DNA of 49,951 nt from the NCBI GenBank assembly GCA_007117735.1, contig SKGA01000028.1, positions 1 through 49,951 on the forward strand. The letters are read 5' to 3'. The notes under the pieces were generated by a model that was not told the origin of the DNA, did no database searches, and saw only the letters and a program-made list of their open reading frames with translations. Below, one piece after another: positions 5,151 to 47,077 of the stretch. The DNA comes from Candidatus Woesearchaeota archaeon. GTDB taxonomy: Archaea > Nanobdellota > Nanobdellia > Woesearchaeales > SKGA01. Within the stretch, counting starts at the first letter, position 1; each line of letters begins with the position of its first letter. The position numbers were made by a program, and so were the translations under genes.

Positions 5151-5151
5151 A

Positions 5152-24424: not shown

Positions 24425-24997
24425 CTATTCGTCTAGTGACTTGAAGACTTTTTGAATAAACTGCTCAGAATACTTCTGCTCTCGAAGAGTATACGCTATT
24501 TGTATATCACTATATCCTTGTTGTCGATAGTACATAATATACTGTTTTAATTGAGAAAAATTTCTTTTTCGGGTATGGAGTAAAACAAGAATAATAATCA
24601 CTAAAAAAGTCAAACCGCTAAAAAGATAGATAAATTGAAAAGACGAAGTAGAAGCAGTAGTTTGCTCAAGAGGAGGCTGTACTGGTCGAGGTCTTTGAGG
24701 ATCGGGATCGACAGGAGAAGATTGTTCAGAAGCATTAACAACAGAATCTCCATCTCTAAAAACTTCGTCTTCAAATAATTCAGGATTTAAAAAAACAAGG
24801 TCCTCATAAAATAAAACTTCTATATCTGCAAAAGAAACCTCGTGCTGACAAAAAAAAGGATAATCTTCACCAAATCGAGCAAGCGCTAAATCAACATCAA
24901 AACATTCTTCAGGTAGTTGAAAAGAAGAAACTGGAGAAACAACTACAAGTAATAATGCAAGAAAGAGTAACAGTTTACCTACAGACACGAGCACCAC
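24425..24997 (-). CDS. Secreted, single-pass membrane protein (last gene of the surface locus)
   Basis: Sec-like signal KLLLFLALLLVVVSPVSSF, then an acidic ectodomain, a P/Q-rich linker, a TM (FIYLFSGLTFLVIIILVLL) and a small cytoplasmic helical domain (YYRQQGYSDIQIAYTLREQKYSEQFIQKV). The likely true start is GTG at 24988, preceded by GAAGGTG plus a 6-nt spacer. It overlaps the 3' end of the upstream gene. Confidence 0.5.
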   Translation of the reverse strand: MVLVSVGKLLLFLALLLVVVSPVSSFQLPEECFDVDLALARFGEDYPFFCQHEVSFADIEVLFYEDLVFLNPELFEDEVFRDGDSVVNASEQSSPVDPDPQRPRPVQPPLEQTTASTSSFQFIYLFSGLTFLVIIILVLLHTRKRNFSQLKQYIMYYRQQGYSDIQIAYTLREQKYSEQFIQKVFKSLDE

Positions 24998-27900
24998 CTT
25001 CTCTTCTTTGTTCTGCTAGTTGCCAACGTCGAGTTCCATATTCAAAATGCCAAGAAGTATAGCTTGGTGAAGTAAAGCGAACAAAACCATAATCACAAAA
25101 AGCGTTTTCCCACGTGTTTGTATTGGTGGTTCTTCCTGTATTTGCATCTCGAAGAGTTACATCAATAGCGCCTGAAACCATATGAGGACAATGACGAGGA
25201 TTACTTCTTGTTCCAGGATTACAAGCAAGATTTCCTCCTCCTCGCAGATGATTTTGATATAACCTATTTTGAATCTCCCATGTTCGATACGCTTGCAAGA
25301 TTACTAATTCAATATCATTTGGAACGAAATATTCTCTACTCATTCTGATTAATTGTCGAGCCATCAATTCGTTAACAGCACAAATTCTTCCAACAGAAGA
25401 TGTTTCTTCATTACAAATAATATTAGGTATATTTCGTATATCATATAAAGGAGCGTTATCTAAATCTCCTCTGAGATGAGTTCCACCAGGTAAAATATAA
25501 GGGACAAGAGTAAAACTCGGCGTGAGATCAGGGAAAGGAACTCTTGTCGAAGGTAATTCAAATATCTCTTGATCAAGAAAATCAACCGGCTGATCTAATC
25601 GATCTAAGACTAATTCTTGTAATCGAGACTCAGGACGATTAGCTATTTGAAAGGTTAAGGATTCATCATCAAAATTGATTCTTCCTTTAAAGATCTGATC
25701 TGACGGCATACAAAGGTTTGAGTTGGAAAAATAATTCTGGAAAAAAGAAAAATCTTCATCAAAAAAAGAAGGCTCTAAAACTTCTTGGAATAAAAATGAA
25801 GAAATATCTTTTGATTCAACATTAAGATAATGATCAAAAACGTGTACTGAAAGATTATATGATCGTCCAGGAATAAAGAAACCACCATCAGGAGTGCTTG
25901 AAAGAAGAACTGAGTATGTATCTTCAGTTGATCCTCGAGAAACATATAATTGTTCTATAGTTGGTTCTAGTTGATTAATTAAAGATAATTCAGTTACTGA
26001 TTGTTCATAAAAGAAAAATGAATCAGTATTTCCTTCAAAAGATATTCCAAACATATAAGGATTATCCGTTTGAGAATCTACTGTCCACGTAACATAGAGT
26101 AGTTCTTGTGCTAAACAGCTTGTTTGTTCTAGAGATAAACTCTTTATTTCCGGAGCTTGACGATCGTCTAAATAAAGTGAAAAGAGAAAAGGTTCTTCGC
26201 TAAAAGAAAAATCTGCGTGTAAAGGAAAATAGTTTTTATTTGATCTGCACAGTAAAGAAGGATCAGTAATGCGCTCGTCAGGAAGGAGCCATTGTAAGTC
26301 ATCTCCATCCTTTAAAATTTGAAGAGAAGGAGAATCAAAAATAAACATATTACGTTCTGAAGGGTTTGGGAAAAAGTGAACTTTTTCATCCGCAATAGTG
26401 AAGAGTAAAGATGAAGAAGGATTCTGAAAGGGGGCATTACGAGTAAAATCAATAGCTGTCGAATGAAGAAGCTGAGAGGTTTGTAATGATCTTGATTCTG
26501 GTAAGTTGGTCAATCCTTCAATAATATCTCCTCGAGAAGTGAGTTGAAAACCATATACTGAAGAATCAATTTCAGGAACTAAAGAATGATTAATATGAAT
26601 ATCGCAAACACAAAGATCTTGATTATTTGTTAAACAATCAAGGTATTGCTCGGCAACAGATAAAGCAAGAGAAGATGTTGTCGGCAGACTAAAAGTATCT
26701 GGTAAATTTTCTGTTAAGCAAGATGCTGTATTATCATCGCACTCTCGATACAGTAAAGAGATCTTTTCTGAAAAAGAAGCAAATTCAGAAAAATTCATTG
26801 GATGATGAGTGACCATCCGCGGTAAAAATTCAATAGCGCTTGATAATAACGAACCTTGAATCGGAGATGAAGAATCTATACTTATCCCTATTTCGTCATA
26901 GTAGGATCGTGCTTGGCAATAAAATGTTTCAATATCACGAGCATAAGGGCAAGTTCGATCTTTAAGGAAAAACTCGCCGCTAGAACCTAAATCTCTATCA
27001 AAATTTCCTTGATAAATACAGAGAATACATTTCCACATTTCTTCAGGATTATTAGCATACTCATTACACCTGAAGTATTGTCCTTGCGAGATAGAGCTAT
27101 CTCCCGTTGTTGCTTCGGTAAACGCGTTAAAAAAAGTAGTTGCTGAACAACGAAGTTGTGCTTTATCAGAAATAACTGCAGGATGATCACAAGATAAATC
27201 ACTTGAGCATGTAGGGAACCATCCACAGCCTGTAAGAAAAGATTTATCTAACTCGTTTGCCCTTTGATTTGAAGAAGCTGCACCCATAGATGATTCTTTC
27301 ATCGCAATAGCCGTAAGTAAAGCAGGATCTATTCCTCGCTCCACACTTGATTGTATAAATGATTCTTCTAAAGACTGTTGAGAGCCAAATGCAGAGTTCT
27401 GTATTCTTGTTCGATAAGTATTTGACAATCGTTGATCCGGACTACAAGCAAAAGAAGGAGCAATCATATTTGTTGATAGCTGTGGAACTGCATTTTTAAA
27501 AAAAGAATCTAAAGAGTCATAACCTTGATCTTGATAAGATAAGCGAATTGCAGTAATATCATACTCTTTAAACCAAACAGTTTGTAATCTTTCTTGCACG
27601 AGGCCTCGCTCAGGAAGACTCGCACTGAACTGATAATCACCATGATATAATAATAATTGAGGAGAAGAAAATAAAGAGCTATTGAAAATAAGAATATCTC
27701 CTGGTTCAAACATGCTTACTTGATCAAAATTGCAAGTTCGACAAACAGCAGGCTTATCTAGTAATCGAGAAATATAAACAGTGGTTGTGTTTCGTTCTTG
27801 GAAAAAAGAAACGTTTGCATGAGTTCCAACCCACCATAACCAACCAGCGGAGTCAAATCCTGCTTCGGTTAAACGAGTAGTTCCTGGTTTAACAGGATAA

Positions 27901-28640
27901 AGAGGGAGATCATATAATAAAGAGTTTTCATCCTGTACAAGAAGAAATGCATCGCTAAAAGAATAAGGTGTTGAACCGTTTCGAACATAGGGTAGATGAA
28001 TACTTAAAGAGTGAAATCCGTCAATAAAATGTTGTGCTATTTCTGCAAAACAAGAACCCGCAGCACAATTTATTTGTCGTTCATAACCGTATGAAGAAAG
28101 TGCTGAAGAAAAGTATTTTGCCGTTGTTGCAGGCTGTATTTTTGATTGTGGAATAGTTTGAGAACTTGTTGGTTGAGAAAGAGGTTGTCGTAAATTTCTT
28201 GTTGCCTGCATATCAACAGTGGATCCCTCTTGAAAAAAGGATAATTGGGAAGGAAAAGTACCAATGGTTTGAAGGTTGTTGAATGTTTTTCGAATAAGTT
28301 CTTCATAGTTTTTTTCAAAAGAGGGAGGATTGTCAGGATACAAAGCCAAGAAAAGATGAGGGGTTGTTTGAAAAGAGGAAGGCGAAACATGGCCTGCTTG
28401 TTGAAGAAGAAGGGTTCTTGCTTCCTGTACAGAAAAACGAAGTGAATGTCTTAGTTCTTGTTCTTGAAGAAAAATATCTTGTGTTGAAGAAAGTAAGGAG
28501 TATTGTTGCGAGCCAATTATTAAACGATCGTCAGAAACAGTAAAGAGATTAAAAGGAGTAAAAACAATATCTACTACAATAATAAAAAAAACCACTGCTA
28601 AGAAAAGCATTCCAAAACCTTTTTTATGTAATCGTTTCAT
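24975..28640 (-). CDS. Pilin-like-anchored multidomain peptidoglycan hydrolase (SLT-like lytic transglycosylase motif plus C-terminal M15/VanY-type D-Ala-D-Ala peptidase; possible papain-like module)
   Basis: The N-terminus MKRLHKKG/FGMLFLAVVFFIIVVDIVF looks like a class III signal. IDPALLTAIAMKESSMG (nt about 26961-27368) matches the SLT catalytic Glu-Ser region. The C-terminal 136 aa (nt 24978-25385) carry QAYRTWEIQNRLY, NPG...HCPHMVSGAIDV and WHFEYG, which are the M15 zinc-ligand motifs. GSCFAEIAQHF, GFDSAGWLWWV, EPGDILIF and LYHGD (nt about 27531-28088) are weakly NlpC/P60- or transglutaminase-like. Confidence 0.75.
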   Translation of the reverse strand: MKRLHKKGFGMLFLAVVFFIIVVDIVFTPFNLFTVSDDRLIIGSQQYSLLSSTQDIFLQEQELRHSLRFSVQEARTLLLQQAGHVSPSSFQTTPHLFLALYPDNPPSFEKNYEELIRKTFNNLQTIGTFPSQLSFFQEGSTVDMQATRNLRQPLSQPTSSQTIPQSKIQPATTAKYFSSALSSYGYERQINCAAGSCFAEIAQHFIDGFHSLSIHLPYVRNGSTPYSFSDAFLLVQDENSLLYDLPLYPVKPGTTRLTEAGFDSAGWLWWVGTHANVSFFQERNTTTVYISRLLDKPAVCRTCNFDQVSMFEPGDILIFNSSLFSSPQLLLYHGDYQFSASLPERGLVQERLQTVWFKEYDITAIRLSYQDQGYDSLDSFFKNAVPQLSTNMIAPSFACSPDQRLSNTYRTRIQNSAFGSQQSLEESFIQSSVERGIDPALLTAIAMKESSMGAASSNQRANELDKSFLTGCGWFPTCSSDLSCDHPAVISDKAQLRCSATTFFNAFTEATTGDSSISQGQYFRCNEYANNPEEMWKCILCIYQGNFDRDLGSSGEFFLKDRTCPYARDIETFYCQARSYYDEIGISIDSSSPIQGSLLSSAIEFLPRMVTHHPMNFSEFASFSEKISLLYRECDDNTASCLTENLPDTFSLPTTSSLALSVAEQYLDCLTNNQDLCVCDIHINHSLVPEIDSSVYGFQLTSRGDIIEGLTNLPESRSLQTSQLLHSTAIDFTRNAPFQNPSSSLLFTIADEKVHFFPNPSERNMFIFDSPSLQILKDGDDLQWLLPDERITDPSLLCRSNKNYFPLHADFSFSEEPFLFSLYLDDRQAPEIKSLSLEQTSCLAQELLYVTWTVDSQTDNPYMFGISFEGNTDSFFFYEQSVTELSLINQLEPTIEQLYVSRGSTEDTYSVLLSSTPDGGFFIPGRSYNLSVHVFDHYLNVESKDISSFLFQEVLEPSFFDEDFSFFQNYFSNSNLCMPSDQIFKGRINFDDESLTFQIANRPESRLQELVLDRLDQPVDFLDQEIFELPSTRVPFPDLTPSFTLVPYILPGGTHLRGDLDNAPLYDIRNIPNIICNEETSSVGRICAVNELMARQLIRMSREYFVPNDIELVILQAYRTWEIQNRLYQNHLRGGGNLACNPGTRSNPRHCPHMVSGAIDVTLRDANTGRTTNTNTWENAFCDYGFVRFTSPSYTSWHFEYGTRRWQLAEQRREGGARVCR

Positions 28641-29188
28641 AAAGTACCTCCTGAAACTAAAGAAAGTAATGTTCGTTGTAAAAAATTAAATCCAGGATAT
28701 TCGAAGCGATAAACAATAAATTTTTGTTGACTTGAAGATGAAGGGATTGGTAGACTAAATCCTTCTTGATAATTTCTACTTCTAGAAGTTCGCAACGGAA
28801 AATATTCCCGAGTACCTTCTATTAAAGCAATTTCAACTTCAGAAACATAAGAATATTCTTTGAAAAGGTTAAGCGATCGTAATAAACGTTCTTGATACGT
28901 TAACATGTTCTCAGTTTCTTCTCTTGTTCTTTCTTCTTTCATTCTTAATGTATAATAGCTAAAGGCGAGGTCTTGGAAATTTTTATCTTCAGAAACAGAC
29001 ATGTCGGGAAGCAAACGCAGTGAAGATTTTGCTAAAAATTCTTGCCTCGCTTCACGTATTTCATTTCTTGCTTGAGATTCTTGAGATTCTATAAAAATAA
29101 AGAAAATGAGAATTGCTAAAAGGAAAAAAACTACTGCAATTATTTTGATATAGATGTTCAGAAAAACAATTCCTTTCTTCATGACCAT
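28637..29188 (-). CDS. Pilin-like (class III signal-like) protein
   Basis: MVMKKG/IVFLNIYIKIIAVVFFLLAILIFFIFI. It overlaps both neighbouring genes. Confidence 0.5.
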   Translation of the reverse strand: MVMKKGIVFLNIYIKIIAVVFFLLAILIFFIFIESQESQARNEIREARQEFLAKSSLRLLPDMSVSEDKNFQDLAFSYYTLRMKEERTREETENMLTYQERLLRSLNLFKEYSYVSEVEIALIEGTREYFPLRTSRSRNYQEGFSLPIPSSSSQQKFIVYRFEYPGFNFLQRTLLSLVSGGTL

Positions 29189-29646
29189 AACCTCATTCTT
29201 GCTGGTAAAAATATCCCTTCATCATAAAGAAGGATTGAAAAGCTCCCATCATGTCTTGCTCTTGAAGGAGTGTGAATCAATAATTCTTTTGTTCTTGAGG
29301 TGGAGGAAGTTAAAGATTGTGGATGATCAATAGACACTTTTGAAAAAGGTACGTCTTGCGCACTTAAACCAAAACAACTAATAAGTTGATCTTCAGTAAA
29401 TAATTGCATATCAACAACACCATACTGTTCAACCCCATCTATTCTGGCTACAAAACAATAATTTGTTAATTGTGAAAATGTCAAATCCATAAACAAGCTT
29501 TCAGGAACTGGACTTCTTGCATCAATGGACACACTCAAACCAATTATCGAAATAAAAAGAATCGCTCCTATGAGAAAGAATAAGAAAATATAGTGAAAGA
29601 CTTCTGCAATGGTTAATCCAGCATCTCCAGAATGATCATCTTCCAT
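29179..29646 (-). CDS. Pilin-like protein with a bacterial-style prepilin motif
   Basis: MEDDHSGDAG/LTIAEVFHYIFLFFLIGAILFISIIGL has G at -1, E at +5 and a hydrophobic helix. Confidence 0.5.
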   Translation of the reverse strand: MEDDHSGDAGLTIAEVFHYIFLFFLIGAILFISIIGLSVSIDARSPVPESLFMDLTFSQLTNYCFVARIDGVEQYGVVDMQLFTEDQLISCFGLSAQDVPFSKVSIDHPQSLTSSTSRTKELLIHTPSRARHDGSFSILLYDEGIFLPARMRLWS

Positions 29647-30515
29647 TATGAATACACCCCATGTAATACCGCTATAATTGAATCAATAAAAGCTCTTTGA
29701 ATTGAAGATTGCTCTAGACGTGAAGATAAGTCTCCTGAAAAAACGATGTTTACTGTTTTTGAAGAAGTAGAAAGTGGTGTTGAAGAAAATAAAACACGAT
29801 CTTCGAGTAGTGCAAAAATTATTTCAAAAGAAGGACGAAGAGATGCAAGACCTTCATGATTAGAAAAAGAAATAACTGTTTCTTCATCAAGACCAAAAGA
29901 GATATCTAAAAATAGAGGTGCTTGAGATGGCTCGACCAATTCAAAACCTTCTTGTCGTAATTGTTGATGAAGCGCAGATTCAAACCTTCGTGAGAAAGGA
30001 GTTTGATCTTGTAATGAAATAGCTACACCTTGTGATTTGAAAAAAGAAAGTTCATTCCCAGGTATTGATCGTAAAGGAGATTGTAGTGTTGAAGAAACAG
30101 TAATGTTTCTGTCTCTTTTAATAAAATGAAATCGTTGTGAAGTAATAGGATTTTGAGGTAAAACAGTATAAAATATATTTGGTTGATAAGGAAATCTAGT
30201 AAGTGAAAACGAAAGATATTCTGAACCGAGAAGGGTCGAAACAATATGATTTTCTGTATCGATTTCCAAAATTCTGTCAGGAAAACTAAGAGGATAAACA
30301 TACGTCACTTCATAAGGAATAGTATTGATTGTTGAAAGAAGCAGCGCACTATCTCGAGTTACATAAACACTTGCAGTAAGATCAGGATTGACAAATTCTT
30401 GTCGAATACCTAAAAGAATAAGAATAAACAACGCTGCAGCTATTAATGAAAAGGCAATTTTTAGCATCAGGGCCGCTGCTTTCTTTCTTAATGGTTTTTG
30501 AAATATCATTTTCAA
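29646..30515 (-). CDS. Pilin-like or signal-anchored surface protein
   Basis: (M)KMIFQKPLRKKAA/ALMLKIAFSLIAAALFILILLGI. The start is either TTG at 30515 (overlapping the upstream stop) or ATG at 30509. Confidence 0.5.
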   Translation of the reverse strand: MKMIFQKPLRKKAAALMLKIAFSLIAAALFILILLGIRQEFVNPDLTASVYVTRDSALLLSTINTIPYEVTYVYPLSFPDRILEIDTENHIVSTLLGSEYLSFSLTRFPYQPNIFYTVLPQNPITSQRFHFIKRDRNITVSSTLQSPLRSIPGNELSFFKSQGVAISLQDQTPFSRRFESALHQQLRQEGFELVEPSQAPLFLDISFGLDEETVISFSNHEGLASLRPSFEIIFALLEDRVLFSSTPLSTSSKTVNIVFSGDLSSRLEQSSIQRAFIDSIIAVLHGVYS

Positions 30516-31729
30516 TTGGGAGTAAAAACCATCGTCCTACCACCAAAAGAAAGACGATGTGGTTGCTCTCGAATAAAAAGAGAATTATCTGTTGCATTTG
30601 TTATCATAATATTAGCTTCAGGAAAAGAAGAAGTTTGTTCAAGACGGAAAGAAATTGATGTGGAAATGCTATCAACACGTGTTGAACCGAGATAAACAGA
30701 AAAAGTTGTTTGAGGTAAAAATCCTGGTTGTACTGGTTCTTCTACAAGCCGAACAGTTGGCGGAGGGATTCCTTCGGGAAAAGAAACGTCTGAGAAATTA
30801 AAAAAACGTTCAAAAAGAACAAGAAGAGTATCTGCTTGGATGTTTTGAGAAGAAAATTCTCTTTCTAAGGAAGATAACAATGATTGAGATCGTGGTTGAA
30901 TAGTTTGTTGAAGAAATTCTTGTCGAATACGCTGATCAAAGATACCATCTTGTAATTCTTTAGCTTGCTGCGGAGTAGTACATGGTTCTTGCACACAAAT
31001 ACTTATAATTTCAGAAGCTTCCTGAAACCGTTGAAATCGTAAAGGGAGACGTTGAGCTTCAAGACTAAAAACTCCTAGAGCAACTCCACCACTCCAATTA
31101 AAATAAGGAGAAGAACTTGGAATGAGTAAAGGATTATACGAACGAGTTTCTGGATCGAGAGATAATAAATTTTGATTCAAGAAAGATGAAAAGCTTCTAT
31201 TTAGATGATGAACTTCTCGATATTCAGTAAATAAAACATTACTAGCTAATTGTTCACAACGAGGTTGTTGGCAAGTAAAACTCTCTTCACCGTCTTTTTG
31301 TAAAGAAAAATGGTTAAATGTTCGTTCATGAGGATCTGTTGAAGTATCAACAATAATAGGATTCAGTGTTGTTTGACAACGACAAACACAGGCAGCATCT
31401 CCACAAAGATCTGGACGTTCTATTTGTATTGCTTTATCTTGCCAAGAAGAAAAGCCATCATATTCAAAACGAATAGGACTTGTTCCCGAAGAAAAGAAAA
31501 AGACATATTCATTCGGTTGAAGAGCGATTGTTCGCGAAGTGAGAACGATCTCATCAGTTATTTCTCTATCTAGAAAACTTTCCAAAACAGTTGCTAAAGA
31601 AGTATGAAGATTTGAGTTTGAAGAAGAAACAGAAAAAGATCGTAAAGCACCTAAAGCAGCAACAGTAATAAGCGCTATTAAGACAAGAGTAACTGTTGTT
31701 GTTAACATTAAAGATGCTTTTCGATTCAT
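30512..31729 (-). CDS. Pilin-like surface protein
   Basis: MNRKAS/LMLTTTVTLVLIALITVAALGAL. The ectodomain contains cysteines. ATGA overlaps on both sides. Confidence 0.55.
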   Translation of the reverse strand: MNRKASLMLTTTVTLVLIALITVAALGALRSFSVSSSNSNLHTSLATVLESFLDREITDEIVLTSRTIALQPNEYVFFFSSGTSPIRFEYDGFSSWQDKAIQIERPDLCGDAACVCRCQTTLNPIIVDTSTDPHERTFNHFSLQKDGEESFTCQQPRCEQLASNVLFTEYREVHHLNRSFSSFLNQNLLSLDPETRSYNPLLIPSSSPYFNWSGGVALGVFSLEAQRLPLRFQRFQEASEIISICVQEPCTTPQQAKELQDGIFDQRIRQEFLQQTIQPRSQSLLSSLEREFSSQNIQADTLLVLFERFFNFSDVSFPEGIPPPTVRLVEEPVQPGFLPQTTFSVYLGSTRVDSISTSISFRLEQTSSFPEANIMITNATDNSLFIREQPHRLSFGGRTMVFTPN

Positions 31730-32433
31730 CTTAACGTACTTCCCTCTCTATTTTGCATTGTTTCACAATGAGCTAAAACCAGAGAGTTACACTCATTAAA
31801 AGGGGTGAGACATTGTAATTGTGGTTCTTCGTTTTCAATAACAAACCATTCATTAAGAAATGTCCGTTCATCGCAACAATCCCAATCTCCTTGTGAGCAT
31901 GTTTCAGGACAGAAAAAGCCAACGGGCAAGTCTTCAAAACGACCGCTTCGAGAAAAAGAGGTTAATTGATCACTAAAAAATATTCCTTGTGCATCGCCAT
32001 CTGATCGTTGTTGTCTCAGATGTCTTTGTAAATTAATAACATCTTGATACGTCATAACTCGAACAGATTGTTTTTCAAGATTAGTTTCTAGAGAGTTTAT
32101 GTTCTCATGGACAACATTGACATCTATAATTCGGTAAAAATCAGGATTATTTGTGCCCCACAAGGATGCTCGAATAACCGGTGAACGAGCAGAAGGTCGA
32201 ATAATTGAAGTGTCAATATTATCTGGATCACAAGGACACTCATCCCGTCCATTAGGAATACCATCGCCATCATAATCATAATTAAGACAAACTTGAAATT
32301 CAAAAAAGGTTGCAGTTGAAGAAAAAGTTTCTGATGTAAAAGACGTAAAAAAAACTAAAATAAGAAGACCAAGCACTATAGCTATAATAATTTTAAAAGA
32401 ACCCGATGCTGCTTTTTTTGAAATGTATTTCAT
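31726..32433 (-). CDS. Pilin-like protein with a thrombospondin type 3-like calcium-binding motif
   Basis: MKYISKKAA/SGSFKIIIAIVLGLLILVFF. DYDGDGIPNGRDECPCDPDN lies at nt 32218-32283. Confidence 0.55.
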   Translation of the reverse strand: MKYISKKAASGSFKIIIAIVLGLLILVFFTSFTSETFSSTATFFEFQVCLNYDYDGDGIPNGRDECPCDPDNIDTSIIRPSARSPVIRASLWGTNNPDFYRIIDVNVVHENINSLETNLEKQSVRVMTYQDVINLQRHLRQQRSDGDAQGIFFSDQLTSFSRSGRFEDLPVGFFCPETCSQGDWDCCDERTFLNEWFVIENEEPQLQCLTPFNECNSLVLAHCETMQNREGSTLR

Positions 32434-33290
32434 GATGATAAACCTCCTTGGTAAAATTGTTGTGAAGTACTTCCCGCGAGATTATTGATAAAAGAAGATG
32501 AAAGGACAGAACCTCGGGTTACTTCATTGTTTTGAACATTAATAGATAAAGAAAAAGGATTTATGTTCGCCCTTCTTCTTTGTTGAGCGATACAAAGTGT
32601 TGGATCGTCTTCAAATTTAGCGAATGCTAACACATTACTTGATGAACGAAGAGAAGTACTAAAAGTTCCTTCTGCCGCCCGATATCGTAGCGTTAAATCT
32701 CTAAGATTTAATTGGAATGTATCAACTGATGATTTACTTAAAACTGAAGAGAGGGAAGCGGCTGATGAAGAAGTAGGTAAACTTGTTGATTGCGCCACAG
32801 CAAAAGTAAACTCTGAAGAAGAAATAATATTTTCATGTAACAAGCAAAGATTAAAAGAACCTAATAATTCTTGACGTTCAGAACCATCTAAAACAGTTCC
32901 TGTGAATGAACGAGTTCCTCTTGCATCAACAGTGAATAAATAAATATGAAGTTCTTCTCCTGATCGTATAAATTCTAAGAACCAGTCTTCTGTTGTTGAA
33001 AGAGATGGTGGTTGGGGAAAAGAGAAAAAACCTTGAGGCTTATTGGGATCAAACAAAAATCGAAGAAGTTGTTCACTATACTCGATATATTCTAGAGGTG
33101 CTAAAGTATTTGAACGTGCAGGTAACGGTTGTTCATTTCTTTGTATAAGTTCAACAAAAGGATCTGAAAAAGAAATAATATAATCGACTTGGGTTACGGT
33201 TGTTGAGAAAGCTCCTTCTGAAAAAGAAAGAAAGAAAAGAGACACAAAAACGACCAAAACTAATCCAAAAATTACTTTCCAAGAGACCAT
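32430..33290 (-). CDS. Signal-anchored surface protein
   Basis: MVSWKVIFGLVLVVFVSLFFLSF followed by an S/T-rich ectodomain. GAGGGAGGGG lies upstream of the ATG. Confidence 0.5.
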   Translation of the reverse strand: MVSWKVIFGLVLVVFVSLFFLSFSEGAFSTTVTQVDYIISFSDPFVELIQRNEQPLPARSNTLAPLEYIEYSEQLLRFLFDPNKPQGFFSFPQPPSLSTTEDWFLEFIRSGEELHIYLFTVDARGTRSFTGTVLDGSERQELLGSFNLCLLHENIISSSEFTFAVAQSTSLPTSSSAASLSSVLSKSSVDTFQLNLRDLTLRYRAAEGTFSTSLRSSSNVLAFAKFEDDPTLCIAQQRRRANINPFSLSINVQNNEVTRGSVLSSSFINNLAGSTSQQFYQGGLSS

Positions 33291-33461
33291 TTAACTTCCC
33301 CTCCCTCTAAAAATGGTGAAAATATTTGAGAAACTATCAACTAAGCCTGAAGAAGAAGAATAAAAAGTATTAATAAGCATAAGAGCAATAGCAACAACAA
33401 TAATAAAAAGAATTGCATAGAGTAACATATTAGTTGATGCTTTTTTATGGAAGTAAAACAC
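33291..33461 (-). CDS. Small pilin-like protein (56 aa from the GTG start)
   Basis: GAGGTG plus a 6-nt spacer precedes the GTG at 33461, giving (M)FYFHKKA/STNMLLYAILFIIVVAIALMLINTF. The track start at 33482 lacks an SD. Confidence 0.45.
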   Translation of the reverse strand: MFYFHKKASTNMLLYAILFIIVVAIALMLINTFYSSSSGLVDSFSNIFTIFRGRGS

Positions 33462-34287
33462 TACATTCACCTCGTTCTTCAAATAAGTCTAATGGTCCGA
33501 ATAATAAACTAGTACGAAGATTATATCCTGAGTCCATATGCGCATTAATAGACCAAAAATGTTCTCGAGAAAAAATATCTCGTGAGAAAAGAATTCGCAG
33601 ACGGTCTTGTTCAAAATCTAATTGTTGACGTAGCCAACCTCCTTCTTCAAAATCACTTATGGCAATAGCATAAGACCTTCCAGGAATAATATATCTATCT
33701 TCCGTATAAATAGATTGAAAAGCAGACTCAACAGATGGAAAAAGGGGAATAAACATTCCTTGTTCTCCTGAAGGAGGGGTCAAAAAATATTCCATATATG
33801 AATAAGGAATATCGTCAATAACAAAAGCAGTTGTTTCCTGTAAATAAGTTAAAAACCGTTCTAAAGAAACCGCGTCAACTCGTGAAGAATCTGCAATATT
33901 AATTACTGCTAAAATACCGCATTTTTCTCCTCTATGTTTAATAAATTGATAGCCTCCTTCTTCATTAAATAAATTAGGTACTGAACCTTCTCGAATAGCG
34001 TACCAAACCCTCTCTGAAGTTTTTGCAGAAACATGTAGAATTTGTTCTTCTGTTGTTATTGATCCTCGTGAAGGAAAATCAATAAACTCCGTAACACACG
34101 TATCTGTAACAAATCGGGTTCGTGAAGAGATTCGTTCATCAACATCTCGAACACCTGTAAGTAATCGACAATAATCTAAGGGCGTTAATCCATCTGAAGA
34201 AGTAAATTGATTAAATAAAAGAAGAATAGCTAAAAAACTAGTAATCCCTACAATAATCGACACGAGAGCTCCTTTTTTATCCAACAA
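33445..34287 (-). CDS. Pilin-like surface protein (about 280 aa from the TTG start)
   Basis: GAGGTG plus a 6-nt spacer precedes the TTG at 34287, giving (M)LDKKG/ALVSIIVGITSFLAILLLF. The track start at 34371 is also TTG but has no SD and adds an odd extra hydrophobic stretch. Confidence 0.5.
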   Translation of the reverse strand: MLDKKGALVSIIVGITSFLAILLLFNQFTSSDGLTPLDYCRLLTGVRDVDERISSRTRFVTDTCVTEFIDFPSRGSITTEEQILHVSAKTSERVWYAIREGSVPNLFNEEGGYQFIKHRGEKCGILAVINIADSSRVDAVSLERFLTYLQETTAFVIDDIPYSYMEYFLTPPSGEQGMFIPLFPSVESAFQSIYTEDRYIIPGRSYAIAISDFEEGGWLRQQLDFEQDRLRILFSRDIFSREHFWSINAHMDSGYNLRTSLLFGPLDLFEERGECSVLLP

Positions 34288-34399
34288 GAGAAACACCTCT
34301 AAATCTTGATACGAAAAAAAGAAAAGCAAGAAAAAGTAGAACAAAGAGACAAATAATGATAATAAGTTCAAAGCTCATACCTTTTTTCCAGAACACCAT
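34277..34399 (-). CDS. Candidate mini-pilin (40 aa), alternative frame to the 5' extension of the previous gene
   Basis: ATG at 34399 gives MVFWKKG/MSFELIIIICLFVLLFLAFLFFVSRFRGVSLVG*. The stop overlaps the TTG start region of the next gene. No clear SD, so this is tentative. Confidence 0.3.
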   Translation of the reverse strand: MVFWKKGMSFELIIIICLFVLLFLAFLFFVSRFRGVSLVG

Positions 34400-34434
34400 A
34401 CTAGAAAAGGAGGTTTTAATGTTTTTAAATATTG

Positions 34435-42803: not shown

Positions 42804-45800
42804 TTAGGGAATGAAAAAAATAGTTGGTTCTTCAAACACAATATTTCTTACTTTTGGATTAATTTGTAACCAGTCTCCTTGATTTCCTCCCCGATCAACA
42901 GCTCTAAAATAAAGATGACTTCTCGCGTGTGTTTCTACAGATAGCAATAAATCTACCTCTGAAGAAGTAGTTCTTGAAACTCCTCCTTGACAATGAGTAA
43001 GAGGATCAAACGTTGCAAGATCAACCGCTGGTCCAAAGCAGTACTCTATCTCTTGACAACCAAACTGTTGAATGGGAATTTGCGAATCAAAATCATCACA
43101 GACTAAACGTAGTTCTCGTTCGAGTACCCAATCAAACAGCGTTGGGAAATAAGGAGTAAATGGTTCTTGTAATGTATCTCGTGCAAGTACTGAAACAGTT
43201 GGCGCGAGTCTATCAATCGTGAAGGTTGCATAATCTCCTGGTTCTTGCTCAGTAATTTCATTAGAGAATTCGCATGAGAAATAGAAAATATAAGGTCTGC
43301 TTTCTTGTGCTTGAATCCCTAATGATGAAGGAAATGAATCTAGACGATGAATATGTGTCGTTCCTCCTGTTTGAGAAAAGGTTCCTCTTGCTTGTGCATG
43401 AGGTCTTTGTTCTGTATCAAACTTACACGTAGCATCATTTACTGTTTGTAATTCTAAAACAACGCTAGAGAGATTTCGATACACTCCTCCTCGTGGAAGA
43501 ATATTAAAGATTGAAGGATTTGCTTCTATAGTAATATCTTCTTGGTATACAAGATCATTCCCAAAATCATCATAACAAGTGAGATTAAAATAATAATAGC
43601 CATCTTGTAAAAATAAGTAGGTGGCGTTAAAGTCTGTTCCAAAGGAAGCAACGTGTTGTCCTCCAATAACTTGTCCTGTTAAATGATCATGTAATCTTCC
43701 TTCACAGAATGAAGACTTGTCTATTTCAAAAGAGACGGTGAGGTTTGTTCGATAGATTCGAGGAGCAACATCAAAAGAATCTTCTTTCGTTTCAAATGAG
43801 ACCAATTCAGGACTCGTTTTATCTATAAAAATAAAACTATGATTAACTACTTCTAAATTTCTAGCTGGATCCATTGAATAATAGAGTAATACATATTCTT
43901 GACTATCATCTGAAAGGTTAGTATATCCATCTCCTCCCGGTAAATAATCATCTAAAGTATAAACAGGGTATGTCGGACAACCTTGATCTAAACAAGCGAG
44001 AGCTACAGATGAGTCAGTAGTGCAATCATCACAATCATCTGGCATATAACATTGTATTTGTGCACAGCTTGCGGGCGCAAGTGCTACATAAGTTAAAAGT
44101 CGTTCACTTTCCCAGGTTGAGTCTTCTACTGTGAAAAGGATTTCTGATAATTGGCTTTTTCCATATACGGGCAAATAAGAACCATCTGTTCGTTGATATC
44201 GAGTTTCTTGAACTGGTGAACGTAGTTGTAAAGTTGTTTCCGGAGCTTCATTATCTAAAATACAATCAAGTCGTTCTGAATTTCGAACTCCTGTACTTAA
44301 CGATCCTGTTCCTCGTTCAAAGCAATCGTCATAAAAAGGATTTATTGAAGAGACATATCCATCACGATTACTAAAGCAACCTTGAACACCTCCTTGATCA
44401 ACCCATTGACAAGTTCCTCTCCCAAAAAGATCATTACTTAACTGCCTTGGTTCATTTGTTCCAGCAATTCGTTGATTTCCGTCGTAAAAAACATTTATTT
44501 CAAACGCTTGATTATTCGTTCCTACACATTGTTCTTCAGTTTCATAAAAGAAACAACCAATAGTTTCTTGTGCTAAACATGCTGGAAGGAAAGGATCAGA
44601 GTGTCGAACAGGAAGAGAGATATCTGCGTTTCTAAAAACGGTTTGTTCTACTCTAGGAGGTGAAGCTGATTGATTGTGGTTTTGTGTTTCTTTAAAGAAA
44701 CAATCACCGTATAATCCGCAAAAATTTTCGTTACAAGTTCCAATCGGACTATCCGTATCACAAAGTGTACAATTTTGATCTTGTACCTCTACTGGTTGAC
44801 AAACTCCAAGACCTAATTCATCACTATAACTTTGCCAAGAACAACCATTTACTGCTTGATTATCATCTAAATCAGTAAACCTAAAACAAGGGTCTTGAGA
44901 ACAAGCTCCTTCTGTCTGATAATCATAACAACTTCGTACTTCATCACAAGAATCATACGTTTCAAAAAATCCTCCTCTCATATCTAAATAACAAAGACCA
45001 ATTTGTGAACCTTCTGGTTCTGGTGTTGCGAGAGGTTGGCTAGGGTCATATTCAAAATCTTCACAAAATAAAAGGGTTGAACCTGTCGAAAAAGACATTT
45101 GTACTTCAAAATTGTAAGGTGAGAATTGGTCAAATAACCCGTTACATAACTCACAAGGTCCTGATTGTACACAAGCAGCTCCTGTTGCTAAAGGATTGTT
45201 TGGTTGAAATGGCGTGTGAACACAGGTTTCACTTGCAGAACAAAATTCTACTGTTTGAAACGTGTTATTCGTATACACGTTATCTCGAATAGTTTCCACA
45301 TAACATCCTGTCGGACTTTCTCCGCCAAAAGAATCCGTTGCACAAATTAAACCAAAAGCTCGTGGTTGATGGCAATACAAATCCCCTGAATTAAAACAAG
45401 GAAGGGTTCCATCCGCATCTACCGCACAGTGTTCTTGACCATCCGCGGTCAAAGTACAAACATTGTAACAATAGTTAGTATTCTCTTGAAGTGCTGAAGC
45501 GAATATTGCTTCCTGTAACGTCTGTTGAACAATTTTTGAATTTTTTGTCCCCTGTGCGCAAGTATTCGGACTTACCCCGCTTTCTTCACACATAATAATA
45601 CGATGACCAACAATATTTTGTTGACAAGATGCTGAAAGATTAGTTCTCCATCGCAATTTTACATCGCTTGTACCTTGGGTATAATATACCCCTGTTGGAA
45701 ATTCTAAATTAGCATAAGAATCAAGAATGTTTCGAGTGTTTTGTCGTTGAGAATCAGTAAATTCATCTAAGAAAGAAGGTGCTTGTTCATCACAAGTATT

Positions 45801-47000
45801 TTGACATAAGGGACTATTTTGACAACTTGGACACGTATCACATTTTGCGACATCATCACAAACCGCGCAAAAATCTTGACATTGCGAATAATCAAAACCA
45901 CAATCAGCAGTACAACCTAAATTACCTCCAGTTAACCCAACTGTTGAACACGCGGGCGCATCTGTTGAAATCGTTCCGTCAGGAAAATGTCGATAATAAG
46001 TGATTCCCGTATCTCTATCAATATCGCATTGTTCAAAACCAGTTACTTCCCCATCACCACAAAGACTCCCTAATTGAGTAGAAGTAGGACAATCAAAATC
46101 TTGACCTTCAGGATCGGGAGTGTTTTGAGTAAGTACAGAGATAGGTCGATCTGTTAAAATACCGCAAGCATTTTGATCAGTTACTGTTCGAAGTTTTACA
46201 TATTCAGTTCCATAAGGAACACATTGACCCCAAGGACCCACATCCCAATCAGGAACACAAGGAGAAGTTATTTCCTGACAATCAAGAACAAAATCAATAG
46301 TTTTTGTTGTGTAAGGTCCTGAAAATTGTTGAGAAATTGTTTGTGGTTGACAGTCAAGAAAAACAGCGTCACCATTTCGAGTAATTTGATAATTTTGCGG
46401 GGCTGTCGCGCTAAATTGGTTAAGAGCATTATCAACTCCAGGAATATCTCCTAAATTATAATGTCCTGTACCATTTGTTGTTGCAGAAATAAACAAGCCA
46501 TTTTCTGCTTGCACCGTAATTCCTGGTAAAGGAATTCCTGAAGCATTATTCATTCGTACAGTCCCAATAACTTCATGCATAATAGTTGGTTGCGCACTAG
46601 GATCACAATCACAAACGCCGTTTGTGGGCGCTACAGGAGTATAAGCACCTCCTTGAACAGTCTCACAGTAAGATTTTTGAATTTCTGAAGGTAATAAATT
46701 AACAGATGAAGCTCCAAAGTCCAACACATTACCAAAACCATCACAACAACAAGCCGTTTCAGTAACATCAGGTAAAATATTCCCGGAAGCGTCAAGACAA
46801 TTGTCGACAAAAACAGAGTTAGGATTCCAAGCTACACAGTCAGCAGCACTGGGAGAAGAGGATGAAGGTATATAAACACCCGTTCCAGGTAGAGAAGGGT
46901 TTGCGTAAGGCATAACGCAACAAGCTTGAGAATTAGCTTGCACTAATGGAAGAAACAGTAATACTGCAATGAATAAAAATAAATACGCTTTCACAACCAA
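42804..47000 (-). CDS. Giant secreted cysteine-rich surface protein (about 1396-1398 aa) with no C-terminal anchor
   Basis: Signal YLFLFIAVLLFLPLVQANS. Several dozen Cys; I counted 29 in the first roughly 410 aa. CarboxypepD_reg-like segment VIGTVRMNNASGIPLPGITVQAENG...TNGTGHYNLGDIPG. TSP1-like CVPDWDVGPWGQCVPYGTEYVKLRTVTDQNACG at nt 46161-46259. CGDGEVTGFEQCD Cys-rich repeat. C-x2-Y-x5-C-x4-C module at nt about 44830-44935. The likely start is GTG at 46994 (AGGGTG plus a 7-nt spacer) rather than TTG at 47000. Confidence 0.8.
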   Translation of the reverse strand: MVVKAYLFLFIAVLLFLPLVQANSQACCVMPYANPSLPGTGVYIPSSSSPSAADCVAWNPNSVFVDNCLDASGNILPDVTETACCCDGFGNVLDFGASSVNLLPSEIQKSYCETVQGGAYTPVAPTNGVCDCDPSAQPTIMHEVIGTVRMNNASGIPLPGITVQAENGLFISATTNGTGHYNLGDIPGVDNALNQFSATAPQNYQITRNGDAVFLDCQPQTISQQFSGPYTTKTIDFVLDCQEITSPCVPDWDVGPWGQCVPYGTEYVKLRTVTDQNACGILTDRPISVLTQNTPDPEGQDFDCPTSTQLGSLCGDGEVTGFEQCDIDRDTGITYYRHFPDGTISTDAPACSTVGLTGGNLGCTADCGFDYSQCQDFCAVCDDVAKCDTCPSCQNSPLCQNTCDEQAPSFLDEFTDSQRQNTRNILDSYANLEFPTGVYYTQGTSDVKLRWRTNLSASCQQNIVGHRIIMCEESGVSPNTCAQGTKNSKIVQQTLQEAIFASALQENTNYCYNVCTLTADGQEHCAVDADGTLPCFNSGDLYCHQPRAFGLICATDSFGGESPTGCYVETIRDNVYTNNTFQTVEFCSASETCVHTPFQPNNPLATGAACVQSGPCELCNGLFDQFSPYNFEVQMSFSTGSTLLFCEDFEYDPSQPLATPEPEGSQIGLCYLDMRGGFFETYDSCDEVRSCYDYQTEGACSQDPCFRFTDLDDNQAVNGCSWQSYSDELGLGVCQPVEVQDQNCTLCDTDSPIGTCNENFCGLYGDCFFKETQNHNQSASPPRVEQTVFRNADISLPVRHSDPFLPACLAQETIGCFFYETEEQCVGTNNQAFEINVFYDGNQRIAGTNEPRQLSNDLFGRGTCQWVDQGGVQGCFSNRDGYVSSINPFYDDCFERGTGSLSTGVRNSERLDCILDNEAPETTLQLRSPVQETRYQRTDGSYLPVYGKSQLSEILFTVEDSTWESERLLTYVALAPASCAQIQCYMPDDCDDCTTDSSVALACLDQGCPTYPVYTLDDYLPGGDGYTNLSDDSQEYVLLYYSMDPARNLEVVNHSFIFIDKTSPELVSFETKEDSFDVAPRIYRTNLTVSFEIDKSSFCEGRLHDHLTGQVIGGQHVASFGTDFNATYLFLQDGYYYFNLTCYDDFGNDLVYQEDITIEANPSIFNILPRGGVYRNLSSVVLELQTVNDATCKFDTEQRPHAQARGTFSQTGGTTHIHRLDSFPSSLGIQAQESRPYIFYFSCEFSNEITEQEPGDYATFTIDRLAPTVSVLARDTLQEPFTPYFPTLFDWVLERELRLVCDDFDSQIPIQQFGCQEIEYCFGPAVDLATFDPLTHCQGGVSRTTSSEVDLLLSVETHARSHLYFRAVDRGGNQGDWLQINPKVRNIVFEEPTIFFIP

Positions 47001-47077
47001 ACACCCTTATATACCATTCTTCAAAAAATAGTCATATATAAATGTTATGGGAAGAAGAAGATCTCTAACTATAAAAA

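What the first reader, a model, noticed from the sequence alone, without database searches (positions are those of the whole stretch)
24975..28640. Peptidoglycan-degrading domains on a pilin-like N-terminus in an organism that should have no peptidoglycan
Seen:
- The N-terminus MKRLHKKG/FGMLFLAVVFFIIVV matches the prepilin-like pattern of the neighbouring genes.
- LLTAIAMKESSMG resembles the catalytic Glu-Ser motif of SLT-family lytic transglycosylases.
- The C-terminal 136 aa carry QAYRTWEIQNRLY, PG...HCPHMVSGAIDV and WHFEYG. These match the His/Asp/His zinc motifs of M15 (VanY / D-Ala-D-Ala carboxypeptidase-like) peptidases.
- A further region (GSCFAEIAQHF, GFDSAGWLWWV, EPGDILIF, LYHGD) weakly resembles a papain-like NlpC/P60 or transglutaminase fold.

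Established: SLT enzymes cleave MurNAc-GlcNAc bonds and M15 enzymes cleave D-Ala-containing stem peptides. Both substrates are specific to bacterial murein. Archaea lack murein, and pseudomurein has different chemistry.

Inference: this is an offensive or host-access enzyme aimed at a bacterial wall, possibly delivered on a filament. I recall that murein-transglycosylase-like genes have been remarked on in some DPANN genomes. A pilin-anchored glycosidase-plus-peptidase fusion inside a pilin operon is not something I know to be characterised.
Basis: partly seen in the sequence, partly recalled or inferred. Interest (0 to 1): 0.88.

Follow-up and report, generated by a model that had tools for sequence, protein, structure and literature searches.

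The report
Archaeal surface protein targeting bacterial walls
A tiny symbiotic (DPANN) archaeon encodes a large surface protein, with a pilin-type start, built from three bacterial-cell-wall-cutting modules, but in this copy only the sugar-cutting module still looks active; proteins of this general kind are already reported in these archaea.

Summary
Domain order: a class-III-signal-like N-terminus (KKG + hydrophobic helix), a family-specific N-domain, NlpC/P60, a very divergent lysozyme-like domain, a family-specific middle region, and a C-terminal M15B (VanY/LdcB) domain. The contig is archaeal, and named relatives are Woesearchaeota/Nanoarchaeia/Nanobdellota.

Three corrections:
1. The glycosidase module is lysozyme-like (GH23/GH73-like). 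It is not demonstrably SLT.
2. The NlpC/P60 module is a true homolog but has lost all three catalytic residues (S264/Q328/A340).
3. The M15 module keeps its zinc ligands (H1153, D1160, H1198) and Arg1119. It has Thr1195 where 9 of 10 relatives, and LdcB, have the catalytic Glu.

Only the lysozyme-like Glu449, invariant in 37/37 relatives, is intact.

"Pilin-like" rests on a conserved [KR][GA]+helix motif (46/48 relatives) and on a prepilin-like gene cluster syntenic in six genomes. No pilin HMM hit and no filament ATPase or platform gene were found nearby.

Large extracellular murein-hydrolase proteins in these archaea, archaeal peptidoglycan hydrolases, and modular pilins are all already published. 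Verdict: a new variant of a known kind, of moderate interest.

The parts
24975..28640 (-). Whole ORF, 1221 aa: a modular extracellular protein aimed at the bacterial cell wall
   Evidence: One 27%-identical full-length homolog came from the word-indexed search. The exhaustive profile search found 98 family representatives.
28551..28640 (-). aa 1-30: class-III-signal-like N-terminus (MKRLHKK-G8 | FGMLFLAVVFFIIVV...), the only hydrophobic helix in the protein
   Evidence: 46/48 relatives have [KR][GAS] directly before the helix (position -2: K 42, R 4; position -1: G 26, A 18). Cleavage is not tested.
28137..28550 (-). aa 31-168: family-specific N-domain with the conserved IGxxQY motif (I42-Y47) and two conserved Cys; fold unknown
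   Evidence: No PDB-sequence or NCBIfam match.
27471..28136 (-). aa 169-390: NlpC/P60 homolog with all three catalytic positions substituted (Cys->S264, His->Q328, His/Glu->A340); probably a pseudo-enzyme or binding module
   Evidence: Alignment A3. 30/32 relatives hit PF00877. Profile vs LytE/CwlO/MepS E=3e-10. Triad table. Residue numbers.
26820..27470 (-). aa 391-607: divergent, Cys-rich lysozyme-like (GH23/GH73-like) domain with invariant catalytic-type Glu449 (KESS); the one module that looks catalytically intact
   Evidence: Alignment A2. Pfam on members. PDB profile. AF2 pLDDT 92.5. Foldseek PDB and BFVD hit lists.
25461..26819 (-). aa 608-1060: family-specific middle region, function unknown
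   Evidence: Conserved only within the family by BLASTP. No Pfam hit.
24978..25460 (-). aa 1061-1221: M15B (VanY/LdcB-type) zinc-peptidase domain. R1119, H1153, D1160 and H1198 are kept. The catalytic Glu of the E-x-W-H motif is replaced by T1195, with a 3-residue insertion just upstream
28637..38505 (-). Upstream run of about 14 co-oriented genes. Each encodes a protein with a short basic N-terminus ending in KK[GA] or [KR]AQ plus one hydrophobic helix (prepilin-like). Gene order is collinear with Woesearchaeota GCA_021734105.1
   Evidence: ordered ortholog pairs; the same arrangement in L005, L007, L009, L013. No Pfam pilin family hit.
24425..24997 (-). Downstream 190-aa gene that overlaps the target's 3' end by 23 nt. 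It has a signal peptide and a C-terminal TM helix and is conserved in every syntenic locus; a possible partner protein
38502..49933 (-). Three giant Cys-rich secreted or surface proteins (1428, 1398 and 951 aa) at the head of the same gene string
   Evidence: 36, 78 and 37 Cys. Only faint Ig-like / CarboxypepD_reg hits.

Best explanation
The gene encodes a large extracellular protein of a family so far seen only in DPANN archaea (Woesearchaeota/Nanoarchaeia/Nanobdellota) among named relatives. The protein is exported and held at the cell surface by a class-III-signal-type (prepilin-like) N-terminal helix.

It presents three modules derived from bacterial peptidoglycan hydrolases: NlpC/P60, a divergent lysozyme-like glycosidase, and an M15B LD/DD-carboxypeptidase-type domain. 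Its most likely job is to bind the murein of a neighbouring bacterium (host, prey or debris) and locally cut its glycan strands.

In this ortholog the lysozyme-like module (Glu449) is probably the only working enzyme. The NlpC/P60 module is catalytically dead. The M15 module still binds zinc but lacks its general base. Both more likely act as stem-peptide recognition or holding modules.

The gene is the last large gene of a conserved cluster of prepilin-like proteins. It may therefore be assembled with them into a surface structure, in the way of a 'modular pilin' or an archaeal bindosome protein.

Shown: the domain identities, the residue states, the family-wide N-terminal motif and the synteny. 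Inferred: export, the peptidoglycan substrate, binding versus catalysis, and any filament.
For: - Archaeal context.
- M15B.
- NlpC/P60 homology.
- Lysozyme-like module. Glu is invariant in 37/37.
- Catalytic losses. T1195 is identical in two independent public assemblies.
- Extracellular features: a single N-terminal helix and 28 Cys.
- Conserved [KR][GA]+helix motif in 46/48 relatives.
- Collinear prepilin-like cluster in six genomes.
- Precedents: Castelle 2021, Vigneron 2022, Strock 2025, modular pilins, archaeal class-III-signal binding proteins.
Against: - No biochemical data of any kind.
- The lysozyme-like assignment rests on many concordant but individually weak matches (Foldseek E>=0.015, TM 0.3-0.47; the target's own Pfam SLT hit has E~0.1).
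- GH23-type folds can also cut chitin, so murein is inferred from domain company, not shown.
- No recognised cell-wall-binding domain is present.
- No pilin HMM or fold match.
- No filament ATPase, platform or prepilin peptidase gene in the window or in +-10 kb of the syntenic loci.
- Loss of catalytic residues in two of three modules could also mean functional decay.
Confidence: 0.6

Rival explanations
1. Nutrient scavenging. The protein is a surface-tethered digestive enzyme that breaks down peptidoglycan from dead bacteria. It supplies amino sugars and amino acids to a metabolically reduced archaeon, with no specific host attachment and no filament.
For: A peptidoglycan-as-food model has been proposed for Pacearchaeota (PMC11537232). 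The window also encodes an alpha-amylase-family enzyme and sugar kinases. No filament machinery lies nearby.
Against: Two of the three hydrolytic modules are inactivated in this copy, which is odd for a digestive enzyme. The tight, conserved linkage to about 14 prepilin-like genes and three giant surface proteins suggests a structural apparatus.
Confidence: 0.2
2. Pure adhesin or pseudo-enzyme. All three modules serve only to bind murein, the protein has no catalytic activity, and it works as the host-recognition subunit of the surface complex.
For: NlpC/P60 reads S/Q/A and the M15 catalytic position reads Thr1195. Castelle 2021 proposed attachment to bacterial walls.
Against: The lysozyme-like Glu is invariant in 37/37 relatives, including this protein. 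Close relatives (P0004-P0006) keep all catalytic residues in all three modules, so catalysis is ancestral and under selection in the family.
Confidence: 0.12
3. Self-directed envelope remodelling. The enzyme opens the archaeon's own envelope, or that of an archaeal host, to let the co-encoded surface structure through. This would parallel the specialised lytic transglycosylases of bacterial secretion and pilus systems.
For: Its position inside a cluster of surface-structure genes. Lysozyme-like folds can act on other GlcNAc polymers; the GH23 chitinase 3w6e is among the Foldseek hits.
Against: DPANN archaea are not known to have murein or pseudomurein (established knowledge). NlpC/P60 and M15B act on D-amino-acid stem peptides. 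No wall-synthesis genes are in the window.
Confidence: 0.05
4. Mis-binned bacterial or phage DNA. The gene would really belong to a bacterium or a virus, so nothing is unusual.
For: Several window genes look bacterial in type: an AspRS with a GAD domain and a short TGT.
Against: The gene is flanked on one contig by RPA, NAC, Sec61-beta and translin. The same synteny with RPA recurs in six archaeal assemblies. There are no phage tblastn hits.
Confidence: 0.02

Closest known systems
[quoted passage not shown] 2021, PMC8204110; earlier Rinke 2013 and Castelle 2015 as cited there; GH23 genes in Vigneron et al. 2022, PMC9723730)
   Same: The same archaeal lineages. Large secreted proteins carrying a lysozyme-like murein-cleaving domain. 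The same proposed role of binding or degrading bacterial walls of hosts or prey.
   Different: The glycosidase module here is too divergent to reach Pfam SLT thresholds. It is fused to NlpC/P60 and M15B modules and to a prepilin-like N-terminus, and it sits in a prepilin-like gene cluster. Membership of fam00969 could not be checked: the family id and the word 'transglycosylase' do not occur in the two supplementary files held as text.
Archaeal modular peptidoglycan hydrolases that kill bacteria (Strock et al. 2025, PMC12352652)
   Same: Archaeal proteins built from bacterial PG-hydrolase catalytic domains, prominent in Nanoarchaeota, and interpreted as acting on bacteria.
   Different: That survey required a Pfam cell-wall-binding domain as well as a catalytic domain, and it counted Sec/Tat signals. 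This protein has no recognised binding domain and a class-III-type signal, so it falls outside that definition. Two of its catalytic modules are degenerate.
LdcB / VanY (M15B LD- and DD-carboxypeptidases; PDB 4ox5, 4d0y, 4mph, 4mur, 5hnm)
   Same: The fold family, the Arg, the H-x6-D and final His zinc ligands, and the overall motif order.
   Different: The Glu of the E-x-x-H motif is Thr1195 in the target. That this Glu is the general base of VanX/LdcB-type enzymes comes from my own knowledge of those families. The domain is also the C-terminal module of a 1221-aa protein rather than a small stand-alone enzyme.
NlpC/P60 DL-endopeptidases (LytE, CwlO, MepS/Spr)
   Same: Homologous domain. The GFD-x-x-G-W and GD-hydrophobic motifs are retained.
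   Different: The Cys-His-His/Glu triad is replaced by Ser264-Gln328-Ala340, so it cannot work as a cysteine peptidase.
Modular type IV pilins (e.g. S. sanguinis PilB; Raynaud et al. 2021, PMC8179133) and archaeal class-III-signal binding proteins of the bindosome (bioRxiv 10.64898/2026.04.22.720090)
   Same: A class-III-type N-terminus and hydrophobic helix carrying bulky functional modules. In bacteria these modules include peptidase domains. Co-encoded with other pilin-like proteins.
   Different: No pilin fold or HMM was detected. No processing or assembly evidence exists. No adjacent ATPase or platform genes. At 1221 aa with five further modules, it is far larger than typical modular pilins.

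Membership tests
Peptidase M15B (VanY/LdcB, PF02557) | Significant match to the family HMM or profile | tested here: met
   Isolated domain: 27.4 bits against GA 25. Whole protein: 23.1 bits. Family profile vs LdcB/VanXY/VanY structures: E=4e-8. 228 database-wide hits; 119 of the 120 listed carry PF02557 and one carries PF01427.
Peptidase M15B (VanY/LdcB, PF02557) | Zinc ligands His-x6-Asp plus the C-terminal His, and the conserved Arg | tested here: met
   R1119, H1153, D1160 and H1198 are invariant columns in A4.
Peptidase M15B (VanY/LdcB, PF02557) | Catalytic general-base Glu in the E-x-x-H motif | tested here: not met
   Thr1195 in the target. Glu in 9/10 family members and in LdcB (EEWH).
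NlpC/P60 (PF00877) | Homology to the family | tested here: met
   30/32 relatives hit PF00877 (best E=1e-16). The profile matches LytE at E=3e-10. The target's own sequence gives no Pfam hit; its membership follows from the family alignment.
NlpC/P60 (PF00877) | Catalytic Cys-His-His/Glu triad | tested here: not met
   S264/Q328/A340 in the target. 21/32 relatives have C-H-H or C-H-E.
SLT lytic transglycosylase (PF01464, GH23) | Match to the SLT HMM at the gathering score | tested here: not met
   12.6 bits against GA 21.3, covering model positions 3-30 only. Only 5/37 relatives hit SLT or SLT_2, whereas 19/37 hit Glucosaminidase.
SLT lytic transglycosylase (PF01464, GH23) | Catalytic Glu in an E-S motif at the end of a helix | tested here: met
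   E449-S450. Glu is invariant in 37/37 and aligns with the catalytic Glu of goose-type lysozymes.
SLT lytic transglycosylase (PF01464, GH23) | Formation of 1,6-anhydro-MurNAc products (lytic rather than hydrolytic cleavage) | not testable with these tools
   Needs muropeptide analysis.
Lysozyme-like superfamily (GH23/GH73 fold) | Lysozyme-like three-dimensional fold | tested here: inconclusive
   The model is confident (pLDDT 92.5). Nearly all of the top 50 PDB hits and most named BFVD hits are lysozyme-like PG glycosidases. But E>=0.015, TM is 0.3-0.47, and no hit reaches E<=1e-3.
Archaeal type IV pilin / class III signal peptide protein | Short basic leader ending in [KR]-[GA], followed by a ~20-residue hydrophobic helix | tested here: met
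   HKK-G8 followed by FGMLFLAVVFFIIVV. The motif is conserved in 46/48 relatives and in most cluster genes.
Archaeal type IV pilin / class III signal peptide protein | Match to a pilin or class-III-signal HMM, or to a solved pilin | tested here: not met
   No Pfam, NCBIfam or PDB-profile hit for the N-module or the neighbours.
Archaeal type IV pilin / class III signal peptide protein | [quoted passage not shown] | not testable with these tools
   Needs N-terminal proteomics and imaging. The rest of the genome is not available.
Type IV filament (TFF) gene locus | Secretion ATPase, platform protein and class III signal peptidase encoded with the pilins (definition in bioRxiv 10.64898/2026.04.22.720090) | tested here: not met
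   None appear among the Pfam hits of the window ORFs scanned. In +-10 kb of L005, L007, L009 and L013 the only Walker-A matches to the pattern used are ABC transporter ATPases. The genes could lie elsewhere in the genome.
Modular PGH as defined by Strock et al. 2025 | [quoted passage not shown] | tested here: not met
   No binding domain (LysM, PG_binding, SH3 or similar) was detected at E<=1.
fam00969 of Castelle et al. 2021 | Membership of that protein cluster | not testable with these tools
   The family id and the word 'transglycosylase' do not occur in the two supplementary files held as text.

The most novel reading that the evidence does not exclude
The conserved gene string encodes a previously undescribed type-IV-filament-like surface appendage of Woesearchaeota/Nanobdellota. 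The string comprises three giant surface proteins, about 14 prepilin-like proteins, this modular protein and a small membrane partner. In this reading the 1221-aa protein is a tip-located 'modular pilin' that recognises murein stem peptides with its two degenerate peptidase modules and nicks the glycan with its lysozyme-like module. It would be a cross-domain attachment or penetration device by which an archaeon parasitises bacteria.
Probability: 0.2. Interest if true: 0.8.

Novelty: new variant of a known kind. Interest (0 to 1): 0.5.

Why it matters
Whether Woesearchaeota and their relatives live on bacterial rather than archaeal hosts, and how they attach, remains open. Every cultivated DPANN archaeon so far has an archaeal host.

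This locus gives a concrete, conserved candidate apparatus, found in six syntenic genomes. It yields defined constructs to test: a lysozyme-like domain with one invariant Glu, and natural active and inactive variants of the NlpC/P60 and M15 modules among close relatives. It also shows that a Pfam-level 'peptidoglycan hydrolase' annotation can hide the loss of catalytic residues. Finally, it defines a Cys-rich lysozyme-like family that Pfam does not capture at its thresholds.

Tried and rejected
- First AF2 run on aa 160-640 with a two-sequence alignment: pLDDT 33, unusable.
- phmmer of the whole protein against PDB: only marginal hits; the MAPK hits are noise.
- Word-indexed homolog search with the full protein: only one homolog. 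The same search with the module-B profile: nothing, although the family exists.
It worked with six closer sequences.
- Exact-sequence look-up of the 951-aa upstream protein: not on record. The 5.7 kb of contig beyond the window and the far upstream part of the Woesearchaeota contig were therefore not inspected.
- Pfam at E<=10 on ten cluster proteins: no pilin family.
- N-module profile against PDB and NCBIfam: noise only.
- tblastn of the M15 and lysozyme-like domains against 50,697 phage records: no match. A recent phage origin is not supported, and the donor lineage stays unresolved.
- Rinke 2013 could not be read.
- fam00969 does not occur in the two Castelle 2021 supplementary files held as text.
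- Considered and rejected: bacterial or phage contamination (the archaeal synteny is conserved), and the target as a pseudogene (intact 1221-aa ORF, identical at the key residues in independent assemblies).

Full report
OBSERVATION. The ORF at 24975..28640 on the minus strand exists as described: ATG start, 1221 aa. The window has about 34% G+C. It carries archaeal/eukaryal-type markers: NAC, replication factor A, translin and, on the matching public contig, Sec61-beta. It also carries some bacterial-type genes, which is usual for DPANN archaea. The protein occurs in two public assemblies (ENA ERZ27301260, Logan SRR7083930). Those copies differ from the window at 5 residues, none of them in a motif discussed here.

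FAMILY AND CONTEXT. The word-indexed search found a single homolog, P0002. It is 1276 aa, NCBI calls it a 'D-alanyl-D-alanine carboxypeptidase family protein [Candidatus Woesearchaeota archaeon]', and it is 27% identical over 940 aa and 43% over the C-terminal 148 aa. An exhaustive profile search with aa 160-640 found 98 cluster representatives (88 at E<=1e-10). It showed that the region consists of two modules that also occur separately. Named relatives are Woesearchaeota, Nanoarchaeia and Nanobdellota MAGs. IMG names one full-length ortholog 'cell wall-associated NlpC family hydrolase/D-alanyl-D-alanine dipeptidase'.

The gene order is conserved in six assemblies: the window, L001, L005, L007, L009 and L013. 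The order is: a run of small prepilin-like genes, then the 1.2-1.55 kaa modular protein, a ~185-aa membrane protein, RPA, YdjM, and an ABC-2 transporter on the opposite strand.

DOMAIN BY DOMAIN.

(i) aa 1061-1221, M15B.
- Pfam VanY scores 27.4 bits on the isolated domain (GA 25) and 23.1 bits on the whole protein.
- The ten-member family profile matches LdcB/DacB, VanXY, VanY, Ply500 and VanX structures, with best E=4e-8.
- The same profile retrieves 228 proteins at database-wide significance. 119 of the 120 best listed carry PF02557, and the other carries PF01427.
- R1119, H1153-x6-D1160 and H1198 are invariant.
- The Glu of the E-x-W-H motif aligns with LdcB 'EEWH' and is present in 9 of 10 family members. 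In the target it is Thr1195, just after a 3-residue insertion, and there is no acidic residue nearby. That this Glu is the general base in VanX/LdcB-type enzymes is established knowledge that I recall, not something tested here.

(ii) aa 169-390, NlpC/P60.
- The target's own sequence gives no Pfam hit.
- 30 of 32 aligned relatives hit PF00877 (best E=1e-16), and the profile matches LytE, CwlO and MepS/Spr (E=3e-10).
- At the catalytic columns, 21 of 32 relatives have C-H-H or C-H-E. The target has S264, Q328 and A340. The module is a true homolog but cannot be a cysteine peptidase.

(iii) aa 391-607, lysozyme-like.
- 19 of 37 members hit Pfam Glucosaminidase (GH73; best E=3e-5), 3 hit SLT_2 and 2 hit SLT. 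The target itself reaches only SLT at 12.6 bits against GA 21.3. PHROGs gives faint endolysin and transglycosylase hits at the same residues.
- The profile's five best PDB sequence hits are a phage cell-wall hydrolase and four goose-type lysozymes (E=0.06-0.14). In the three alignments printed, the catalytic Glu aligns with the invariant Glu.
- An AF2 model from the 37-sequence alignment is confident: pLDDT 92.5, pTM 0.87, all-alpha.
- Foldseek finds no strong match. The best are E=0.075 in PDB and 0.015 in BFVD, with TM 0.3-0.47. The hit lists are nevertheless almost exclusively MltF, Slt, MltE, goose-type lysozymes, GH73 autolysins and phage endolysins or LT_GEWL proteins.
- I conclude that this is a very divergent lysozyme-like (GH23/GH73-like) domain. 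The bond it cleaves and the chemistry (lytic or hydrolytic) are unresolved, and 'SLT family' is not established.

(iv) aa 31-168 and aa 608-1060 are conserved only within the family and match nothing known.

THE PILIN QUESTION. The target begins MKRLHKK-G followed by a 20-residue hydrophobic helix, its only one. Among 48 relatives that share the N-terminal architecture, 46 have [KR]-[G/A/S] directly before the helix (K 42 and R 4 at position -2; G 26 and A 18 at position -1). In 42 of them a conserved [IVLF]GxxQ motif follows about 30 residues later. The roughly 14 upstream genes, and their orthologs in other genomes, start the same way. Four of them carry the classic [KR]AQ motif. This matches the archaeal class III signal consensus.

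Three tests came back negative. No Pfam, NCBIfam or PDB-profile match to pilins was found for the N-module or the neighbours. No secretion ATPase, platform protein or class III peptidase gene appears among the Pfam hits of the window ORFs scanned. None was found within 10 kb of four syntenic loci either. 'Prepilin-like' is therefore a well-supported motif-level description. Filament delivery is an inference.

MECHANISM. The best-supported reading (confidence about 0.6) is a surface-exposed protein that engages bacterial murein. The evidence for a surface location is the N-terminal signal/anchor and the 28 Cys. The evidence for murein as the target is that three unrelated domain families, all typical of peptidoglycan hydrolases, are combined in one polypeptide in an organism without murein. 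In this copy the lysozyme-like module is the plausible catalyst. The NlpC/P60 and M15 modules more likely hold stem peptides than cut them.

Close relatives (P0004-P0006) keep all catalytic residues, and P0002/P0003 keep the M15 Glu. The family is therefore ancestrally enzymatic, and this ortholog is the most degenerate member.

Rival readings are:
- nutritional digestion of bacterial necromass (supported by PMC11537232);
- a purely adhesive pseudo-enzyme;
- self-envelope remodelling for assembly of the co-encoded structure;
- contamination, which the conserved archaeal synteny effectively excludes.

COMPARISON AND NOVELTY. Several related things are already published:
- large extracellular murein-transglycosylase-domain proteins specific to Woesearchaeota/Pacearchaeota (Castelle 2021, which cites Rinke 2013 and Castelle 2015);
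- GH23 genes and a 'vampiristic' lifestyle in Woesearchaeota (Vigneron 2022);
- experimentally validated archaeal peptidoglycan hydrolases, with such genes prominent in Nanoarchaeota (Strock 2025);
- modular pilins that carry functional modules, including peptidase domains, in bacteria, and archaeal class-III-signal binding proteins.

What I did not find described is the following combination: this three-module architecture behind a family-wide class-III-type N-terminus; its fixed place at the end of a conserved prepilin-like cluster next to RPA; the Cys-rich lysozyme-like family that escapes Pfam thresholds; and the pattern of catalytic-residue loss. I rate it a new variant of a known kind, with interest 0.5.

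Noticed in passing
window 35617-35883 (-): 88-aa prepilin-like protein (…RKKA|ELSMNIIIMAIIGLIILAIV…) with a 6-Cys C-terminal knot that gives faint defensin-like Pfam hits (E=0.05 and 0.24). L001 has an ortholog (1774-2031, BLASTP E=1e-12). ORFs with the same KKG/RKG-[SV]ELS/EIS-type start occur in L010, L012 and L013 (2612-2887, 8855-9202, 779-1081). Its small size and conservation make it a candidate major subunit of whatever the cluster builds.
   Followed up: partly
window 38502-49933 (-): Three giant secreted proteins (1428, 1398 and 951 aa) with 36, 78 and 37 cysteines head the same gene string. Only faint Ig-like (Big_13, Y_Y_Y) and CarboxypepD_reg hits. The 1428-aa protein has a C-terminal TM helix and a long Glu/Gln-rich tail.
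   Followed up: partly
window 24425-24997 (-): 190-aa gene overlapping the target's stop region by 23 nt, with a signal peptide and a C-terminal TM helix. It is present directly downstream of the modular protein in the syntenic loci (179-240 aa ORFs). A possible partner, anchor or immunity-like protein; no family match.
   Followed up: partly
window 31726-32433 (-): Prepilin-like 235-aa protein containing a thrombospondin-type-3-like calcium-binding motif (DYDGDGIPNGRDECPCDPDN; Pfam TSP_3 E=0.024) and 10 Cys.
   Followed up: no
window 1463-3145 (+) and 10156-11448 (-): Two class IIb aminoacyl-tRNA synthetase genes in one window. One is a bacterial-type AspRS with a GAD insertion domain (560 aa). 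The other is a shorter Asp/Asn-type enzyme (430 aa). A 403-aa TGT at 12643-13854 also looks bacterial in length. These may be examples of bacterial-type genes in a DPANN genome.
   Followed up: no
window 14975-38640 vs L003/L004: The window differs from the two public assemblies at 20 of 23,666 positions. Five of these are in the target gene and all five are nonsynonymous (aa 309, 387, 463, 465, 477). Three cluster just after the catalytic Glu449 of the lysozyme-like module. The number is too small for any inference about selection.
   Followed up: partly
L005-L008, L010, L011, L013, L014 (record titles): Eight loci carrying this family come from ENA TPA MAGs titled 'uncultured Methanosarcinales archaeon'. 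At least three of them (L005, L007, L013) share the Woesearchaeota/Nanobdellota-type synteny, so that taxonomic label is probably wrong or generic.
   Followed up: no
one search hit list (M15 profile): Many of the best named matches to the archaeal M15 profile are bdelloid rotifer proteins (Rotaria, Adineta) annotated as D-alanyl-D-alanine carboxypeptidase-like. They look like another case of this bacterial domain in organisms without murein.
   Followed up: no
window 3177-5150 (+) and 5059-5625 (+): A 657-aa alpha-amylase-family gene overlaps the following YbaK/tRNA-editing-domain ORF by 92 nt as listed. The start of the second gene is probably further downstream.
   Followed up: no
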